DNA of 36,976 nucleotides from a virus. Taxonomy: Duplodnaviria; Heunggongvirae; Uroviricota; Caudoviricetes. The notes beneath the pieces are model-generated. The model was not told where the DNA came from and ran no database searches. It saw only the letters and a program-made list of their open reading frames with translations. Below are positions 644 to 29,529 of the stretch, piece after piece. The translations under genes were made by a program, and so were the position numbers. The DNA lies in the IMG/VR virus record IMGVR_UViG_3300037042_007115; one strand, given 5' to 3'. Position 1 is the stretch's first letter. Each line of letters starts with the position of its first letter.

Positions 644-1057
644 ATGGTACAGACCAAAGAGGAAAAATCAGCTAGGAGAAAGGCTCGCAGAGAGAAGCGA
701 AAAGATGCTTCTAATAATCTAGCCCCTAAAGTAGCTGTAAATCCTCTTGCTGAACAAGATGAAGTTCAGCCAGTAAAAGCCCGGAGGCCGTATTCTGGCT
801 TCCAGGGAACTCTTTTTGAGAAGTTTACAGATGAGTCTAATAATAACGCAGAGTGTTACCGGATTTATACCGATAGACTCAATGTTTTGGGTGTAGTTGA
901 ATATGACCATAATGCAAAAGATTGGTTTATTTTCATTACCCGCTTCCCAATGGACTGGGATCACTCAGCTAGGTTCCCCAGCTTGGATCTTGCTATGAGA
1001 TGTCTCTATGAACATTACCGCCCCCTTGTCACTAAAGACCTGGGTGCCACTGCATAG
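644..1057 (+). CDS. Hypothetical protein with N-terminal Arg-rich motif
   Basis: Starts 1 nt after the previous stop; KEEKSARRKARREKRK. Confidence 0.7.
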   Translation: MVQTKEEKSARRKARREKRKDASNNLAPKVAVNPLAEQDEVQPVKARRPYSGFQGTLFEKFTDESNNNAECYRIYTDRLNVLGVVEYDHNAKDWFIFITRFPMDWDHSARFPSLDLAMRCLYEHYRPLVTKDLGATA

Positions 1058-1066
1058 GAGTTAACT

Positions 1067-2194
1067 ATGACAATGAGTGAAGCAGAGAAAAGACAAAAGA
1101 GAAAGGAACGCAGAGATGCGCGTAAAGGTAAGCAGTCAGAGCCTCAGGGACAGCGTCTCCTGGAGAATTGGGTAGCGGCAGGGAAGAGAGTTCAAGCCAC
1201 AATGCAACCAGCAGAAGCAGAAATACGCCCCATGCATACATCAAAGTCAGGCGGGTCATTTCCAGCTCTAATTCCTGTAATGCTAGCCTCAGACAACTAT
1301 GCGGATAGGGCTCTTACTGACTCATCTTATTTGATTCAGGAGAAATTCGACGGGTCCAGAGTTTGTGCCATAAAGAAAGATGGGCAAATTTGGATGATTA
1401 CCAGAAGTTGGAAGAATAGTCTTGGGCCAGGATACCCAGAGATTATCGCTGATCTCCAGAAAATTAAGGCGGATAATTTTGTCCTCGATGGTGAACTTAC
1501 TTTCTTTAAGAAGAATGGTCAGCCTCAATATCTTACTGCCCTTGCCACTTCAGGCACTAAGGCCGGATTTGATATTAAGTTGATGATGTTCGATGTCCAG
1601 GAGTTTAACGGCCGGAACTATCGCGGTTTTCCATTGACACAGAGGCTTCAACTCCTTAGCAGGATCATCCCCAGGAATCTTAAGCATATTGAAGTTGTCG
1701 AGACTCATACAAACGTTGCCCAGTACCAGTCTATCTTCAACCAAATAGTTGCAAGGGGCGGGGAAGGCGTTGTTGCTAAGAAAAAGAACTCTACCTATGT
1801 GGGGGATTCCAGGTCTTCATGGGTTAAAGTGAAAAAAGCGGCGACAGAAGATGTAGTAGTACTAGGGATTACTGAAGGGACAGGTAAAAGAGCTCCATTT
1901 TTTGGTGCTCTTGTTCTTGGGCAATACGATAGTAAGGGAAATATGAAAGCAATCGGGAAATCCTCCGGCTTTGATGATGCTACATTACTTCGTTTCTACA
2001 AGATGATCATGGAGATGCCCCAACACCCTGCCTACCCCGGGGTGGATATTAAGGATGTTAAACGGTGGATTTCACCCAAACTTGTCATAGAAGTAGAATA
2101 TCTCGAAAAAACCCCTTATGGGATATTAAGGCACCCAAGGTATTTAAGAATAAGAGATGATAAATTACCTTCTCAGTGTAAAATTCAGGGTTAG
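1067..2194 (+). CDS. lig: ATP-dependent DNA ligase (compact adenylation + OB domains, LigC/LigD-ligase-like) with Arg-rich N-terminal extension
   Basis: Motif I IQEKFDGSR, III FVLDGEL, IIIa LMMFDV, IV EGVVAK, V WVKVKK, VI LRHPRYLRIRDDK; GGAG SD. Confidence 0.95.
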   Translation: MTMSEAEKRQKRKERRDARKGKQSEPQGQRLLENWVAAGKRVQATMQPAEAEIRPMHTSKSGGSFPALIPVMLASDNYADRALTDSSYLIQEKFDGSRVCAIKKDGQIWMITRSWKNSLGPGYPEIIADLQKIKADNFVLDGELTFFKKNGQPQYLTALATSGTKAGFDIKLMMFDVQEFNGRNYRGFPLTQRLQLLSRIIPRNLKHIEVVETHTNVAQYQSIFNQIVARGGEGVVAKKKNSTYVGDSRSSWVKVKKAATEDVVVLGITEGTGKRAPFFGALVLGQYDSKGNMKAIGKSSGFDDATLLRFYKMIMEMPQHPAYPGVDIKDVKRWISPKLVIEVEYLEKTPYGILRHPRYLRIRDDKLPSQCKIQG

Positions 2195-4455: not shown

Positions 4456-5085
4456 TTATGCCCCCGTCATATCCATCCAGCCGGAAGTACGCACTAAGAT
4501 TTTTTCCACATCTTCACGAGTAAAGTCTAAATTAATGTAAAAACCTATAGCAGTACCCTCTGTATGGCCGAAACTTTTTGCAATTAGACTCAATGCAGAG
4601 GGCTGACTGCCTTTAATTACTAGTGCCTGTACCAACCAGCTCTCATATGTCTTCCTTAGTGTCTTAGCACTCAATCCCTCTGGGCTAATACCCGCTTTAA
4701 TTGCTTTGGCTTTTAGGAATTTAGTAAAGCCCCTACGAGTATAAAGATCTTTATCAGGTTCAAGACCCTTACGCTTAAAGGCATCCACGGCATACCAACC
4801 CTCCCTTGAGAGATGAACAAACCTATCCGGGGATTTTCGCTCAGTCTTCAGCGCCGCTTCATTTGATAAGTAGATGGTGTGTGTCTGTTCTCGTATCCAA
4901 TCTAAGTTTTTGGAGAGTCGCATTAATTCAATATACCGCATTCCAGTGTATAATGATAAATCCAGAATTAACTTGGTATTTTCACTATCTATGGTTTCCC
5001 TGAGCATATCATACTCTATGGGTCTTAAAACCCTAAGTGGGGTTCCTTTTCTAGTGTGTAAAATAATGGGTAAAATTTCTGCCAT
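4456..5085 (-). CDS. Tyrosine recombinase, catalytic domain only (209 aa)
   Basis: LYTGMRYIEL (Arg I), SAKTLRKTY (HxxR box with H->K), FGHT (His/Trp), GFY (catalytic Tyr). Confidence 0.88.
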   Translation of the reverse strand: MAEILPIILHTRKGTPLRVLRPIEYDMLRETIDSENTKLILDLSLYTGMRYIELMRLSKNLDWIREQTHTIYLSNEAALKTERKSPDRFVHLSREGWYAVDAFKRKGLEPDKDLYTRRGFTKFLKAKAIKAGISPEGLSAKTLRKTYESWLVQALVIKGSQPSALSLIAKSFGHTEGTAIGFYINLDFTREDVEKILVRTSGWMDMTGA

Positions 5086-5650: not shown

Positions 5651-5872
5651 TTAGGCTAATTTAGCATAGATGGCATAGTGCTCCGGGTAATTACTACCTC
5701 GGGGGTCATGACATAGCACGATAAGTGGTGTTCCCGTATATTTAGTATCCCACTTTGTTCCTATGAATTTGGGGAGAAGATCTCCTTTAGTACCTCTTAC
5801 AGAATCAGGTACAAAGTAGTACCTCTTTCTGCGATAAATAATATAATCTGGTATTCCGATTACTTCTTTCAT
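5651..5872 (-). CDS. Hypothetical protein
   Basis: ATGA overlap with upstream ORF; followed by hairpin gagatgg-gtt-ccatctc (5629-5645). Confidence 0.6.
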   Translation of the reverse strand: MKEVIGIPDYIIYRRKRYYFVPDSVRGTKGDLLPKFIGTKWDTKYTGTPLIVLCHDPRGSNYPEHYAIYAKLA

Positions 5873-6369
5873 GGTTTTTCTCCTATGACTATATCTTTTC
5901 TATATTGTGGAACATCTCTAATCATGGCCCTGGTGTCCTGTAAGCCCTTTTTAACAACCATATCCTGGAAACCAGTCTTTTCCATATGATTAGTCACCTT
6001 TTCTACCCAGGCTTTCGGGAGCCTGGCTGCCCCTATCTCTACTTGGCCCCCAGGCTTTAGGACTCTGAATGCTTCTGAGTAGGCTTTTCTGCGGCCAAAG
6101 GCTGCCACTGAACTATGGCTTACTACTACATCAAAAGTTTTATTAGGGTAAGGCAAGGCTTTGTTAAAGTCAACTCCCTCGGTAATATCAACTCTTCTAG
6201 CAAAGCTTCTCCGCCTAGCTATCTCATCTTTAGGGACTCCCAGCTCCTTTGCCTGTAAGGCTACCCACTTTTCATCGCTATTTTGCATCTTTTTATCATA
6301 GCACAGGTCAGCACCATGCGTGGCCCTGTAGTCTGGGACTTTGCCACAACCCATATCTAGAACTTTCAT
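5869..6369 (-). CDS. Class I SAM-dependent methyltransferase (paralogue A)
   Basis: VLDMGCG motif I, LPYPNKTFDVVVS, RVLKPGG. Confidence 0.88.
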   Translation of the reverse strand: MKVLDMGCGKVPDYRATHGADLCYDKKMQNSDEKWVALQAKELGVPKDEIARRRSFARRVDITEGVDFNKALPYPNKTFDVVVSHSSVAAFGRRKAYSEAFRVLKPGGQVEIGAARLPKAWVEKVTNHMEKTGFQDMVVKKGLQDTRAMIRDVPQYRKDIVIGEKP

Positions 6370-20243: not shown

Positions 20244-20595
20244 TCTAAAACTCCTTTAATTTTAATGGAGCTTCAGAGCACAAAAAGGATCCTATCTCCC
20301 TGAAAAACCGATAGTAAGAAACAGCTTTTCTATGAGTGACCGTTTAGTTAGATTCGGTTCTTTCTGTTCTCGTTTGGGTGGATAAACAGAAAAATTTAGA
20401 GCTCAAATCTAGTCGCAATCCCAAACCTTGAGCCAAAATTTCTCCGTTATAGTATAAAAACAGAACTTTTTAACTCCGAAGTAATTTTGTCCTAAGCGGC
20501 GGAGAGGGTATTAACCAAAAACAGCCTGTAGCAAAATTCCTACTGGAAGACTTCGGGAGAAAAGTCATTAGACTAAAGAGTTTGTGGGTAGACCA

Positions 20596-20623
20596 TCATA
20601 TGACAAAATTTTTTGTCATATGA
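20596..20623. repeat. 28-bp inverted repeat, TCATATGACAA-AATTTT-TTGTCATATGA
   Basis: Perfect 11-bp arms (13 bp counting inner A/T); lies in noncoding DNA just past an operon stop. Confidence 0.9.
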
Positions 20624-20638
20624 CTTCTAGAGAAAAGT

Positions 20639-26192: not shown

Positions 26193-26567
26193 TTACTCCA
26201 AGTTCATGGATTCAGCATCTGGATCGTAGGTTGCTCTACTAATAGTAGCTAAACCTAACCGACGATTTTGAGTCCGTAGGGTTGCACGGATAACATCGAA
26301 GAGTTGTGATTCCGCCGGATTATTAAGAAGTAGTACCTCGCGTAAAGCCACTACTGTCCCATCCTGATTAACAATGGTGGCAATGTTTATATCTGGAGTG
26401 ATATAAAAGGTACCAAGAAGTCTTCCGCATCGATTGAAGTGGGCCTCAACAGCTTCTATCAATTCTGCATCTTCCTCACACTGTTCAAAAACACCGGTAA
26501 AGATATCTACCAGAGGATAAACATCTCCACTTTCTTCAATTACTACGGTATAGGTAAGTGATTCCAT
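26193..26567 (-). CDS. Acidic hypothetical protein
   Basis: Operon-packed. Confidence 0.6.
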   Translation of the reverse strand: MESLTYTVVIEESGDVYPLVDIFTGVFEQCEEDAELIEAVEAHFNRCGRLLGTFYITPDINIATIVNQDGTVVALREVLLLNNPAESQLFDVIRATLRTQNRRLGLATISRATYDPDAESMNLE

Positions 26568-26571
26568 ATAA

Positions 26572-26904
26572 TTAATCTTTGGGCAGTTCTGGATTAAAAT
26601 CCTTTCTAAGCGCCGCTACATCAGTACAGAGTTTCTTAAACTCGGGGTTAGCATTTAGATTCTGGTGTGAGGTGATCCTATTCCAGACATCGTATCTTTC
26701 TGCAATGAAGCCAAGAAAAGTACAAAGCAAAAAAACCGACCCAGCAACAATAGGGATAATCCATAGTGGGATATAGATCCCTTTCACCGTAATCATTGTC
26801 ACTATAGACATTCCGAAGTTAATTAGTCCGATGAAAACACTTAAGAATCCGAAGCCCCAGATGAACCAGATGTATAAAGGGATAACTCTATCTACTAAAG
26901 TCAC
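26572..26904 (-). CDS. Two-TM membrane protein
   Basis: Two hydrophobic helices plus charged tail. Confidence 0.65.
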   Translation of the reverse strand: MTLVDRVIPLYIWFIWGFGFLSVFIGLINFGMSIVTMITVKGIYIPLWIIPIVAGSVFLLCTFLGFIAERYDVWNRITSHQNLNANPEFKKLCTDVAALRKDFNPELPKD

Positions 26905-27083
26905 TTACAACTGCCTCCAAAACAAAGGCGGGACAGATCTGCATGTAATGCCATATCAGGATAAGCTATGTATAACTTTATGGCTAGCAAAACAAGAAGA
27001 AACATAGTAGTAAAGACGATTGCTGCAGAAAGTGGATTAAAGAATACCCACTCTCTAAAAGTCCTAGATGGAAGAAGGGTCAT
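26901..27083 (-). CDS. Single-TM membrane protein
   Basis: Hydrophobic helix; ATGA overlaps. Confidence 0.6.
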   Translation of the reverse strand: MTLLPSRTFREWVFFNPLSAAIVFTTMFLLVLLAIKLYIAYPDMALHADLSRLCFGGSCK

Positions 27084-27289
27084 ACTAAAGCAACCCCGAT
27101 AAAAACACCCAGGGTCATAGAAAGAATGAAGATACCTAGAAAGAGAAGCTTAGGGAAGACAATTACCGTCCCCCACATTTCCTGGTGTATAGAACCGATT
27201 ATACATCCAGCACCAAAAAGAATCCCGAAAAGCGGGAGCAAATTAACTAGTGCTGAGAAAATAAGAATATCAAGAGTCTCAAGAGTCAT
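27080..27289 (-). CDS. Two-TM membrane protein
   Basis: Almost entirely hydrophobic; GAGGT SD. Confidence 0.6.
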   Translation of the reverse strand: MTLETLDILIFSALVNLLPLFGILFGAGCIIGSIHQEMWGTVIVFPKLLFLGIFILSMTLGVFIGVALV

Positions 27290-27416
27290 TTTTTACCTCA
27301 GAATTATCTCCCTCAAAATGAAACCCTTTCTCCTTCATCTGCTTGATGTATTCCTCTTTTGTAAGGATTGTACCATCTAGAACAAAACAATCAAAATCAA
27401 GAGGCATAAAAGTCAT
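27279..27416 (-). CDS. 45-aa protein MTFMPLDFDC... (not in ORF track)
   Basis: ATGA overlap; fills gap. Confidence 0.5.
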   Translation of the reverse strand: MTFMPLDFDCFVLDGTILTKEEYIKQMKEKGFHFEGDNSEVKNDS

Positions 27417-27571
27417 TTCCGGCTCACCGCCCTCCTTTGGAACCTATCACAGCCGCCAAGCCAAACAAATAACCGCCCCCACCAACCGGTTGTACTTACT
27501 TCAGCAAAACACCCCTCAGGGTCTAAAATTTCTTGCCTATGATTACAAACATTGCAGGGGAACTCAATCAT
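27413..27571 (-). CDS. 52-aa zinc-ribbon-like protein (start re-assigned to MIEFPC)
   Basis: GGTGA SD before ATG 27571; CNVC...C; the longer track ORF would overlap the tRNAs. Confidence 0.55.
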   Translation of the reverse strand: MIEFPCNVCNHRQEILDPEGCFAEVSTTGWWGRLFVWLGGCDRFQRRAVSRK

Positions 27572-27634
27572 CCAATCACCAGAACTATATTTAAATATAA
27601 TTAGGGCATCTGGGAATTTAAAGTTAACTAAAAG

Positions 27635-27697
27635 TGGGCACAATCGGGCTTGAACCGATGCGCTCCCGGATGCTCTACCAATCTGAGCTATGCGCCC
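27635..27697 (-). ncRNA. 63-nt tRNA-like RNA lacking the anticodon arm
   Basis: GGGCGCA TA GCTC AGATTGGTA GAGC A TCCGGGAGCGC ATCGG TTCAAGC CCGAT TGTGCCC A: 7-bp acceptor, 4-bp D stem, 5-bp T stem, but only 11 nt between position 26 and the T stem. Confidence 0.8.
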
Positions 27698-27702
27698 ATA
27701 AA

Positions 27703-27776
27703 TGTCACGAGAAAGATTTGAACTCTCGTCTGAGCCTTCCAAAAGCCCAAGGATAACCGAACTACCCTATCGCAAC
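27703..27776 (-). tRNA. tRNA-Pro (anticodon UGG)
   Basis: GTTGCGA TA GGGTAGTTCGGTTATCCT T GGGCT TTTGGAA GGCTC AGAC GAGAG TTCAAAT CTTTC TCGTGAC A; full cloverleaf; CCA not encoded. Confidence 0.82.
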
Positions 27777-27780
27777 TCTA

Positions 27781-28060
27781 TTCTAGCTGGGTCGGAAGAT
27801 GGGATTACATTTGGTTCCCATTTACCCAGCTTTGTGTTATGTGTCCGTGTGGAACAGGTAGGGTGAACAAGCCCATGTATACAAACCTTTGTACGGATAT
27901 GGCCTGCAGTGACTCTATGTTGAGCTGGGTTTCGCATAGATAGCCTTGCCCCGCTCCTCACCTATATTCCACATTCCGGAAAATGCCCCGTGAATCGTGA
28001 CCACCTCAGCAGCGTCCTGTATATTGCACGATTTTGATTTGACAACGAAGGGACATATGT
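27781..28060 (-). ncRNA. Candidate structured noncoding RNA leading the tRNA operon
   Basis: Long interrupted helix (27980-27943 with 27873-27844), internal hairpins, 3' hairpin 27785-27831; TATA-like ATAAATAC at 28083-28076; no SD-supported ORF. Confidence 0.55.
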
Positions 28061-28094
28061 AAATGGTATTCAAAAGTATTTATGGGTTACCCAG

Positions 28095-28322
28095 CTAAAT
28101 TAACCCAAGAATCTCCTCACTATCAATGAAGTCATCGCAGAATAACCGATACATCATCTTGGGCTCAGAATCTAACTGCACTGAAATAATAGTAGGCCTA
28201 TTCCGGCCCTCATTCCCGGGCTTTAACTTAAAGACAATCCTACCGTCTTTCTCTTCTCGGATGTACTTAGTCTCCTCAAAGACATATGAAGAAACTTTAT
28301 CGGTACTTAAAACTTGCAGCAT
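28095..28322 (-). CDS. Hypothetical protein
   Basis: GAGGT SD. Confidence 0.6.
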   Translation of the reverse strand: MLQVLSTDKVSSYVFEETKYIREEKDGRIVFKLKPGNEGRNRPTIISVQLDSEPKMMYRLFCDDFIDSEEILGLI

Positions 28323-28330
28323 AATGTACC

Positions 28331-28510
28331 TCAGAAAAACTTAGTCTTAGCTTTTAACTGAGGAAAGTCAGGCTTATACTCTTGGCAAGCACTACACTCC
28401 TCAGTTGAAAGACCCTTATATTCTTCTCCCGATACCGCTGCATTGTTTCTACCTGTTGCAACGCACTCAAAGCGCTTTGAACACGGTTTTCTACCTTGCC
28501 AATCAACCAT
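28331..28510 (-). CDS. 59-aa Cys4 protein MVDWQGRKPCSKRFEC...CSAC (not in ORF track)
   Basis: GGAG SD; BRE/TATA GGAAACC-TTTAAAA at 28564-28551. Confidence 0.65.
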   Translation of the reverse strand: MVDWQGRKPCSKRFECVATGRNNAAVSGEEYKGLSTEECSACQEYKPDFPQLKAKTKFF

Positions 28511-28564
28511 TTTACTTCTCCTTTGTATAATTACTTAGGGTATTACAAGGTTTTAAAGGTTTCC

Positions 28565-28951
28565 CTAAAGAATACCCCAAAATTTTTCTGCTTTTTCTTC
28601 AGAGTTTAAAGTAAGAGTTACAGGTGCATAGACACATGCTCCACCAAGACCAACAACATTACCACTTGCAGGTGACCTCGCTGGCTTCTCTTGTGTCTGT
28701 GGACTTAGAATAACTGTACAGGTGGCACCAACTTTCAGGAATTGATTAACCTGAGGATCACTAGAGAAGAAAATCTCCTGGTTTTGAGTCATAATGAAAA
28801 CCCCTGAGTCTTTGCCCAATTCCCAAACACTTGGCTTAAGTTCTATGATAGTTATTAGCCGTACAGTAGGCTTTGGTACTTCCGGTGTACTACTACACCC
28901 TGCGGTGCAGAGAAGTAAACCCAAAATTATAAGAATATACAGTGCTTTCAT
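28565..28951 (-). CDS. Putative lipoprotein / secreted protein
   Basis: MKALYILIILGLLLCTAGC lipobox-type signal peptide. Confidence 0.7.
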   Translation of the reverse strand: MKALYILIILGLLLCTAGCSSTPEVPKPTVRLITIIELKPSVWELGKDSGVFIMTQNQEIFFSSDPQVNQFLKVGATCTVILSPQTQEKPARSPASGNVVGLGGACVYAPVTLTLNSEEKAEKFWGIL

Positions 28952-28958
28952 ATTTCTC

Positions 28959-29282
28959 CTATAGCGGGGATCCGCAATTATTAGTTAGCTTTCCTTTAAC
29001 AGCAATTCTATGCACTTTGTAGATTGCATAATACGCATGAGTATTGGGATCTAACTCACTAGAACAATTAAATGCCCAGGCAAAATTGTTAGGATGAACA
29101 AAGAGTGGCTTAAACCTCTTCTCATTGGTTTTATCCAGGTGGTCTTCATCACATACCTCTGTTGGGTTTTTTATCCACCGGTTGATCCAGTATAATGCAA
29201 GGAGCCCATCATCGTCTCCCTTAGCAATAAGCTCCTCAGCACACTTTTTCATCTTAAATATGTTAGGGTCTAGTTCCGGCAT
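28959..29282 (-). CDS. Hypothetical protein
   Basis: Operon-packed. Confidence 0.6.
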   Translation of the reverse strand: MPELDPNIFKMKKCAEELIAKGDDDGLLALYWINRWIKNPTEVCDEDHLDKTNEKRFKPLFVHPNNFAWAFNCSSELDPNTHAYYAIYKVHRIAVKGKLTNNCGSPL

Positions 29283-29529
29283 CTAGCCCCCCCTCATCTG
29301 TACTTACCGTATAGCTGCCGGGATACCATCCCCGCTCAACTGTTCGATAGAATTTTAGTTTATCAACATCACTAAGCTTCCCTAATGAAATTCTAAGTCC
29401 GATGAATGGGACCATGATATAGAGGTGCCTATGTTTAGAATCATAGTAGCCCCCCACCCACCAGTCATATGTGGCCACTAGGACACGTATGCGGGAAGTA
29501 ATAGAGTGTTCCCAGCTACGCCATATCAT
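29263..29529 (-). CDS. Hypothetical protein
   Basis: ATGA overlap. Confidence 0.6.
   Translation of the reverse strand: MIWRSWEHSITSRIRVLVATYDWWVGGYYDSKHRHLYIMVPFIGLRISLGKLSDVDKLKFYRTVERGWYPGSYTVSTDEGGLDAGTRP

What the first reader, a model, noticed from the sequence alone, without database searches (positions are those of the whole stretch)
27781..28060. Candidate new structured ncRNA with a built-in two-state switch at the head of the tRNA operon
Seen on the minus strand: helix TCCG-gaa-TGTGGAA-ta-TAGGT...GGGCAAG pairing with CTTGTTC...ACCTG-TTCCACA-CGGA. It encloses hairpins TCTATG/CATAGA and GTACAA/TTGTAT, and is followed by hairpin AGCTGGGT...TGGGA/TCCCA...ACCCAGCT. The loop of the TCTATG hairpin holds a second ACCCAGCT (27930-27923) that can pair with the same AGCTGGGT (27831-27824), so a pseudoknot and the 3' hairpin are mutually exclusive. 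A TATA box puts the start near 28058. RNase P, SRP, group I and hammerhead consensus motifs are absent. Known: GOLLD and ROOL RNAs also lie beside phage tRNAs. Inference: an undescribed RNA, possibly controlling tRNA processing or binding the Arg-rich tags.
Basis: partly seen in the sequence, partly recalled or inferred. Interest (0 to 1): 0.75.

Follow-up and report, generated by a model that had tools for sequence, protein, structure and literature searches.

The report
Orphan folded RNA before viral tRNAs
A large uncultured virus, probably of methane-making archaea, has a 280-base gene-free stretch in front of two tRNA genes that probably folds as RNA, but no relative could be found, and the proposed two-state switch is more simply explained by a repeated hairpin stem.

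Summary
The helices are at the stated coordinates. The stretch is ORF-poor, GC-rich (48% against 21-43% in other gaps) and folds better than shuffles (z -2.7 to -3.7), though 3-8% of this window's tiles fold as well. The repeated 8-mer is beyond chance (45/20,000 shuffles). The four copies alternate in orientation like two copies of one hairpin stem, and any such duplication allows the 'alternative' 2:3 pairing. In the full-length RNA the 3' hairpin dominates (pair probability about 0.99). The hairpin meant to display the pseudoknot strand is not predicted. The pseudoknot is favoured only before copy 4 is transcribed. There is no Rfam hit; Y RNA, RNase P, SRP, hammerhead, GOLLD and ROOL features were not met. 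No homologue was found in any collection searched, so covariation could not be tested. The scan lists no look-alike on other DNA. Best reading: an orphan structured RNA at the head of a viral tRNA precursor, cut free by host RNase P, of the same kind as T4 species I/II. A regulated switch is possible but unsupported.

The parts
28089..28096 (-). With copy 2 it forms a 23-bp, 78% inverted repeat; with copy 4 a 14-bp, 86% one.
   Evidence: (I2, I7)
28077..28084 (-). TATA-like box, predicted start near 28058; a second candidate lies at 28056-28063
   Evidence: sequence; resembles the promoter-like gap 28539-28565 (D1); inferred, no RNA data
27983..28056 (-). 5' domain: outer 7-bp helix (pair probability 0.7-0.86) and a possible inner perfect 7-bp helix 28033-28027 / 27999-27993; not significant on its own (z -0.86)
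27844..27980 (-). Long irregular helix (arms 27980-27945 and 27871-27844) with an ill-defined top; a bulge-helix-bulge-like motif with only a 1-bp outer helix lies at its base
   Evidence: (z -2.88 minus, -1.98 plus)
27923..27930 (-). Copy 2 (ACCCAGCT), followed by a 4-nt spacer and ATAGAGT; the proposed pseudoknot strand
27785..27831 (-). 3' hairpin: copy 3 (27831-27824) paired with copy 4 (27792-27785), inner 5-6-bp helix; ends 8 nt before the tRNA; copy 4 is followed by a 3-nt spacer and ATAGAGT
   Evidence: z -4.4
27703..27776 (-). tRNA-Pro(UGG); RNase P cleavage at its 5' end would set the 3' end of the candidate RNA (inferred)
27635..27697 (-). tRNA-like gene lacking the anticodon arm, second unit of the same precursor
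   Evidence: spanned by one contig of the probable source run

Best explanation
The stretch is the structured, non-coding head of a viral tRNA precursor. Shown: it has no credible ORF, is GC-rich, is predicted to fold into a long helix and a stable 3' hairpin on the tRNA strand, and carries four alternating copies of one octamer. Inferred: it is transcribed from the TATA-like box at 28084 (and perhaps also by read-through, since no U5+ tract follows the upstream ORF). Host RNase P then cuts at 27776/27777 and releases an RNA of about 280 nt, as T4 species I and II are released from the T4 tRNA precursor. The final fold is long helix plus 3:4 hairpin. The four octamers are best read as two copies of one closing stem: both 5' copies continue with AA, and both 3' copies continue with a 3-4-nt spacer and ATAGAGT. 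The 2:3 pseudoknot is then a by-product that can exist only briefly during transcription, until copy 4 displaces copy 2. Most likely job (least certain step): the hairpins keep the leader from mispairing with the weakly paired tRNA-Pro and protect the precursor; the released RNA may persist as a stable decoy-type small RNA beside the anticodon-less tRNA.
For: Non-coding gap in a tightly packed genome, GC 0.48 against 0.21-0.43 in 13 other gaps. The 64-aa ORF scores -0.055 on an in-window codon model, while 18 small neighbouring genes all score +0.017 to +0.256. Folding z -3.71 on the minus strand, -2.59 on the plus strand. 3:4 pairing has probability 0.98-0.99 in all five transcript versions tested; it lost to 1:4 only in a version trimmed at 28105. 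Repeat structure of the four copies; 2+2 pattern in 0/20,000 shuffles. Energetics. [quoted passage not shown]
Against: No homologue, hence no covariation. All nine flanking proteins found in the collection are known only from this genome. Folding scores are matched by 3-8% of window tiles, and those tile z-scores are noisy. The interiors of the two supposed duplicated units do not align (p 0.985), so duplication rests on the ends only. Why only 8 nt stayed identical in all four copies is unexplained. Promoter and processing are inferred.
Confidence: 0.5

Rival explanations
1. A selected switch. Copies 1-4 act like attenuator segments (2:3 pseudoknot against 3:4 hairpin, or 1:4 plus 2:3 in a read-through RNA whose copy 1 overlaps the upstream stop codon) and control RNase P access to tRNA-Pro or the activity of the RNA.
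For: Perfect 8-bp GC-rich alternatives, rare by chance. Before copy 4 is made, the pseudoknot state (-88.2 before a pseudoknot penalty) beats the unknotted fold (-73.4). With the 5' end trimmed at 28105 the predicted fold pairs 1:4 and leaves copy 3 largely free.
Against: The displaying hairpin has probability 0.00. After a usual 7-10 kcal/mol pseudoknot penalty (own knowledge) the knot is 6-9 kcal/mol worse than 3:4 in the full RNA. In the longer read-through RNA, 1:4 costs +4.2 and 1:2 costs +9.4 kcal/mol. No terminator or ligand motif is coupled to either state.
Confidence: 0.12
2. A decayed non-coding leader with no selected structure beyond the 3' hairpin; the repeats and the long helix are leftovers of local duplications and inversions.
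For: Folding is not exceptional for this genome. The top of the long helix and the 5' domain are diffuse (z -0.86). No conservation was found. A similar 270-nt gap behind another tRNA gene of this virus folds no better than shuffles (z +1.37).
Against: GC enrichment against AT-rich gaps, strand-biased folding with G-U pairs on the tRNA strand, and four octamers with no change.
Confidence: 0.25
3. A DNA-level element: the octamers are protein-binding sites around the tRNA promoter, or copies 1 and 2 are the worn inverted ends of a small inserted element (about 28099-27914).
For: Copies 1 and 2 share 21 of 29 bases as an inverted repeat, the best such match in 46 kb. Copy 1 abuts the promoter.
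Against: That match has E = 1.9. No target duplication is visible. The octamer occurs once more in the window and not at all in 39.8 kb of adjoining viral DNA. The long helix crosses the supposed element end.
Confidence: 0.08
4. The bulge-helix-bulge-like motif at the base of the long helix is cut by the host tRNA splicing endonuclease, and the roughly 130-nt domain is released as a circular RNA.
For: 4-bp central helix 27980-27977 / 27847-27844, two 3-nt bulges and a 9-bp inner helix. Such a motif appears in 14/400 shuffles. The same virus has a tRNA intron with a full motif and an RNA ligase 2.3 kb away.
Against: [quoted passage not shown] 21 other loose matches exist in the region.
Confidence: 0.05

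Closest known systems
Phage T4 species I and II stable RNAs (PMC2330249)
   Same: Non-tRNA RNAs encoded in a viral tRNA cluster and made from the same precursor as the tRNAs; function unknown (own knowledge).
   Different: No sequence match in the phage collection. This RNA is about twice as long (T4 sizes from own knowledge), sits at the 5' head of the unit, and comes from a probably archaeal virus.
GOLLD and ROOL RNAs (bioRxiv 10.1101/2024.12.08.627333)
   Same: Structured RNAs of unknown function near tRNA islands of phages and prophages.
   Different: They are about 660 to over 800 nt, multi-pseudoknotted, defined by covariation and form cages. This is 280 nt, has no Rfam match and no covariation data.
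Bacterial, phage and archaeal Y RNAs (YrlA; Chen et al. 2014, PMC4201824)
   Same: The 3' hairpin loosely resembles a terminal Y-RNA stem, it lies next to tRNA-like genes, and earlier notes place a Ro60 gene in this genome.
   Different: The GNCGAAN0-1G motif is absent (two changes away at best), there is no tRNA-like domain, and the Ro60 gene is reported about 74 kb away rather than within 4 kb.
RNase P RNA
   Same: An 8-bp pseudoknot whose 5' strand lies inside a long helix and whose 3' strand follows it after an A/C-rich linker, as for P4.
   Different: The conserved CR-I and CR-V words and the bulged U are absent, and the order of elements differs; no Rfam hit at E up to 10.

Membership tests
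Y RNA (YrlA/YrlB type) | GNCGAAN0-1G (or GGUCCGA) Ro60-binding motif near the 5' end | tested here: not met
   No match on either strand of 27777-28100; the motif is seen beside TROVE genes of archaeal genomes
Y RNA (YrlA/YrlB type) | tRNA-like D/T domain within the RNA; match to RF02553 | tested here: not met
   The only YrlA hit (19.4 bits, cut-off 69) lies over the two tRNAs, not over this stretch
Y RNA (YrlA/YrlB type) | Encoded within about 4 kb of Ro60 on the same strand | tested here: not met
The ORFs within 4 kb are small orphans, an RNA ligase, a phosphoesterase and one 589-aa protein; the long ones scanned gave no TROVE hit.
RNase P RNA | CR-I (GAGGAAAGUC) and CR-V (ACAGAA...) forming P4 with a bulged U | tested here: not met
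SRP RNA (including permuted forms) | Helix 8 SRP54-binding loop with GNRA tetraloop; Rfam SRP match | tested here: not met
   No SRP hit at E up to 10; neither top hairpin has a GNRA or GNAR loop (sequence). A permuted construct was not scanned
Hammerhead and other self-cleaving ribozymes | CUGANGA / GAAA core; Rfam match | tested here: not met
   CUGANGA absent on both strands; no ribozyme family listed. Novel catalytic folds cannot be excluded
HDV-like theta ribozymes | HDV-like fold beside a phage tRNA (placed 3' of it, own knowledge; PMC10879173 listed, not read) | tested here: not met
   This stretch is 5' of the tRNA; no HDV-family hit
GOLLD / ROOL | Size of about 600-800+ nt and match to the Rfam models | tested here: not met
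   280 nt; no hit
Archaeal C/D and H/ACA guide RNAs | K-turn or K-loop; C, D', C', D boxes in order; pseudouridylation pocket | tested here: not met
   One C-like box (27961) and one CUGA (28009), about 45 nt apart in D-then-C order, with no closing boxes; no tandem GA pairs in the long helix (sequence)
tRNA-cluster stable RNAs (T4 species I/II kind) | Encoded in a viral tRNA unit on the same strand | tested here: met
tRNA-cluster stable RNAs (T4 species I/II kind) | Accumulates as a discrete processed RNA in infected cells | not testable with these tools
   Needs RNA data from a sample holding this virus
Conserved structured RNA family (any) | Covariation among homologues | tested here: inconclusive
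   No homologue found
EndA substrate (bulge-helix-bulge) | 4-bp helix with two 3-nt bulges and both flanking helices | tested here: inconclusive
   Inner helix 9 bp, outer helix only 1 bp

The most novel reading that the evidence does not exclude
A new class of viral RNA in archaea in which four identical 8-nt segments form a real switch (pseudoknot against hairpin, reset by the ribosome stopping on copy 1 or by transcription speed) that times tRNA maturation, possibly with the long-helix domain excised as a circle by the host splicing endonuclease.
Probability: 0.08. Interest if true: 0.8.

Novelty: new member of a known kind. Interest (0 to 1): 0.38.

Why it matters
Stable RNAs of unknown function in viral tRNA clusters are a long-standing puzzle, and I found none described for viruses of methanogens in a limited literature search. 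If real, this would be a short, easily synthesised example lying beside an anticodon-less tRNA and an RNA repair pair. A true conformational switch controlling tRNA maturation would be new. As it stands it is a single sequence without covariation or expression data, so its value is as a bench-testable lead and as a query for future metagenomes.

Tried and rejected
Homologue searches, all empty or at chance level: blastn in phages and plasmids; five pattern scans of viral contigs (the hits were coding regions, an unrelated actinophage-like repeat, and one hairpin before a tRNA in a T4-like phage, none scoring with the model); an exact 25-mer in metagenome contigs; a single-sequence covariance model, so of limited sensitivity, over related viral loci and 151 Methanomicrobiales genomes; BLAST over 401 genomes of the phylum, 5 short hits at E 0.002-0.01 where about 4 are expected. 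Loci of relatives reached through the 75-aa ORF and the RNA ligase carry tRNA clusters (L005, L016, L020) but no similar leader. Paralogue test: 39.8 kb of adjoining viral DNA holds no copy of the octamer and no match; the 270-nt gap behind the intron-containing tRNA aligns no better than random tiles. Decayed tRNA-Pro duplicate at 27911-27832: p 0.04 against shuffles, but 16% of native tiles score as well; rejected. Frameshifted small gene at 28056-27914: no homologue; the hits were long repeat proteins; rejected. The 64-aa ORF has a negative codon score and no well-spaced ribosome-binding site; it was not searched against protein databases. Retron, attC and IS200/605 ends were considered by eye and lack their marks. 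Expression: no RNA holder listed, which is no evidence either way; the second DNA run covers only 28395-28555. Two probability values (helix P1c, the 5' helix) were mis-indexed in my scripts and are not used. No whole genome is held.

Full report
Context. The window is part of a 178-kb contig. It encodes an ATP-dependent DNA ligase, a tyrosine integrase, a presenilin-type protease, an RNA ligase and a metallophosphoesterase. Adjoining DNA encodes a PolA, a helicase and nucleotide enzymes. A tRNA intron with a full bulge-helix-bulge motif elsewhere in the genome and TATA-like promoters point to an archaeal virus. Methanomicrobiales as host is my inference from protein motifs and was not shown: the presenilin is only 27-33% identical to their copies. 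The stretch 26500-29500 is spanned without differences by one contig of the probable source run.

Observation. The stretch lies between the stop of a 75-aa ORF (28095) and tRNA-Pro (27776-27703), which is followed by an anticodon-less tRNA (27697-27635). GC is 0.48 against 0.21-0.43 in 13 other gaps. The 64-aa ORF scores negatively on a codon model on which 18 small neighbours score positively. Folding beats shuffles (z -2.65, -3.36, -3.71) and prefers the tRNA strand. However, 3-8% of 200-nt tiles in the window fold as well (noisy), so folding alone does not prove selection. The long helix and the 3' hairpin are well determined. The two inner hairpins are not: 0.00 and about 0.18.

The octamer. 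One strand with two perfect 8-bp partners occurs in 0.2% of shuffles. The copies alternate in orientation. Both 5'-type copies continue with AA, and both 3'-type copies continue after 3-4 nt with ATAGAGT. Copies 1 and 2 extend to a 23-29-bp imperfect inverted repeat. This is the pattern that two copies of one hairpin stem give, and 2:3 pairing follows automatically from it. The interiors of the two units do not align, so the duplication is inferred from the ends. The octamer is not a genome-wide signal: there is one other copy in the window and none in 39.8 kb of adjoining DNA.

Is it a switch? The 3:4 hairpin has probability 0.98-0.99 in all five transcript versions; only a version trimmed at 28105 preferred 1:4. 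Keeping copies 2 and 3 open costs about 17 kcal/mol and the 8-bp helix returns 18.0, giving -88.2 against -86.9 before any pseudoknot penalty. With a usual penalty of 7-10 kcal/mol (own knowledge) the knot loses by 6-9. Before copy 4 is transcribed it wins by about 5-8 over the unknotted fold (-73.4). A transient knot during transcription is therefore plausible. A balanced two-state switch would need a factor that removes or binds copy 4. Copy 1 could do so in a read-through RNA, since no U5+ tract follows the upstream ORF, but 1:4 costs 4.2 kcal/mol more than 3:4.

Homologues. None was found in phage, plasmid, viral, metagenome or archaeal genome collections, by sequence, pattern or a single-sequence model. 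The flanking proteins are known only from this genome at 90% identity. Related viruses reached through the RNA ligase often have tRNA clusters nearby but no similar leader. Covariation, the decisive test, could not be run. The sensitivity of a one-sequence model is limited, so absence is not shown.

Mechanism, marked by basis. Shown: non-coding character, predicted helices, repeats, position. From established knowledge: archaeal RNase P cuts at the tRNA 5' end, which would release the leader with its 3' end at 27777; T4 makes species I and II RNAs from its tRNA precursor (PMC2330249). Inferred: a start at about 28058 (or 28035), a final fold with the 3:4 hairpin, and a role in insulating and protecting the pre-tRNA, with possible persistence as a decoy-type RNA. 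I give this reading 0.5, a decayed leader 0.25, a selected switch 0.12, a DNA element 0.08 and EndA circularisation 0.05.

Comparison with known families. It is not a member of Y RNA, RNase P, SRP, hammerhead, theta, GOLLD, ROOL, C/D or H/ACA families by the features tested. By position it resembles the orphan RNAs of viral tRNA clusters. The scan's own index lists no look-alike on other genomes; it does list other orphan RNAs beside viral tRNAs, which I did not compare.

Verdict. This is probably an undescribed structured leader or small RNA of a known kind, so far a singleton. The built-in switch is not excluded but is the less parsimonious reading. Interest 0.38.

Noticed in passing
window 27995-28001 (-): GTCACGA is the perfect complement of the 3' acceptor strand of tRNA-Pro, whose own acceptor stem has two G-U pairs; it overlaps the inner helix of the 5' domain. 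About 2% expected by chance.
   Followed up: no
window 28351-28411 (+): A 60-nt hairpin antisense to the 59-aa ORF contains GAGGAAAGTC followed by GGCTTAT, two RNase P signature words; no Rfam RNase P hit, probably chance.
   Followed up: partly
L185 19246-19437 (-): Intron-containing tRNA of the same virus. A full bulge-helix-bulge motif suggests tRNA-Gln(UUG) with a 37/38 intron rather than the tRNA-Pro called by ARAGORN. The 270 nt behind it fold no better than shuffles (z +1.37) and are unrelated to this RNA.
   Followed up: partly
L148 about 4998-5043 (+): Hammerhead-like element (CTGATGA core, GAAA, stem III, GTC) with a U-U pair at the base of stem II in a T4-like phage contig, not listed by Rfam at E up to 1. 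It lies in a gap of about 490 nt with no long ORF, upstream of a tRNA cluster.
   Followed up: no
L148 5128-5167 (+): A hairpin closed by the same 8-bp stem lies 9 nt before the first tRNA of that cluster. No other similarity and no model score; may be chance, since the search pattern asked for it.
   Followed up: partly
L005, L016, L020: Close relatives of the window's RNA ligase lie beside or near clusters of only tRNA-Leu and tRNA-Ser genes, a recurring link between the ligase and viral tRNAs.
   Followed up: no
L164, L173, L174, L176, L177: tRNA-ordered RNAs with a GNCGAAG-type motif lie next to TROVE (Ro60) genes in several archaeal genomes.
   Followed up: no
L001 about 1040-1250 (-): Two repeated hairpin units directly behind a gene that looks like an IS110-type transposase (by eye) in a GC-rich phage contig.
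   Followed up: no
window 20244-20638, 5681-5880, 681-880: These tiles fold better than the candidate RNA (z -4.5 to -5.7 with 12 shuffles); the first is the second-largest non-coding gap after the tRNA unit.
   Followed up: no
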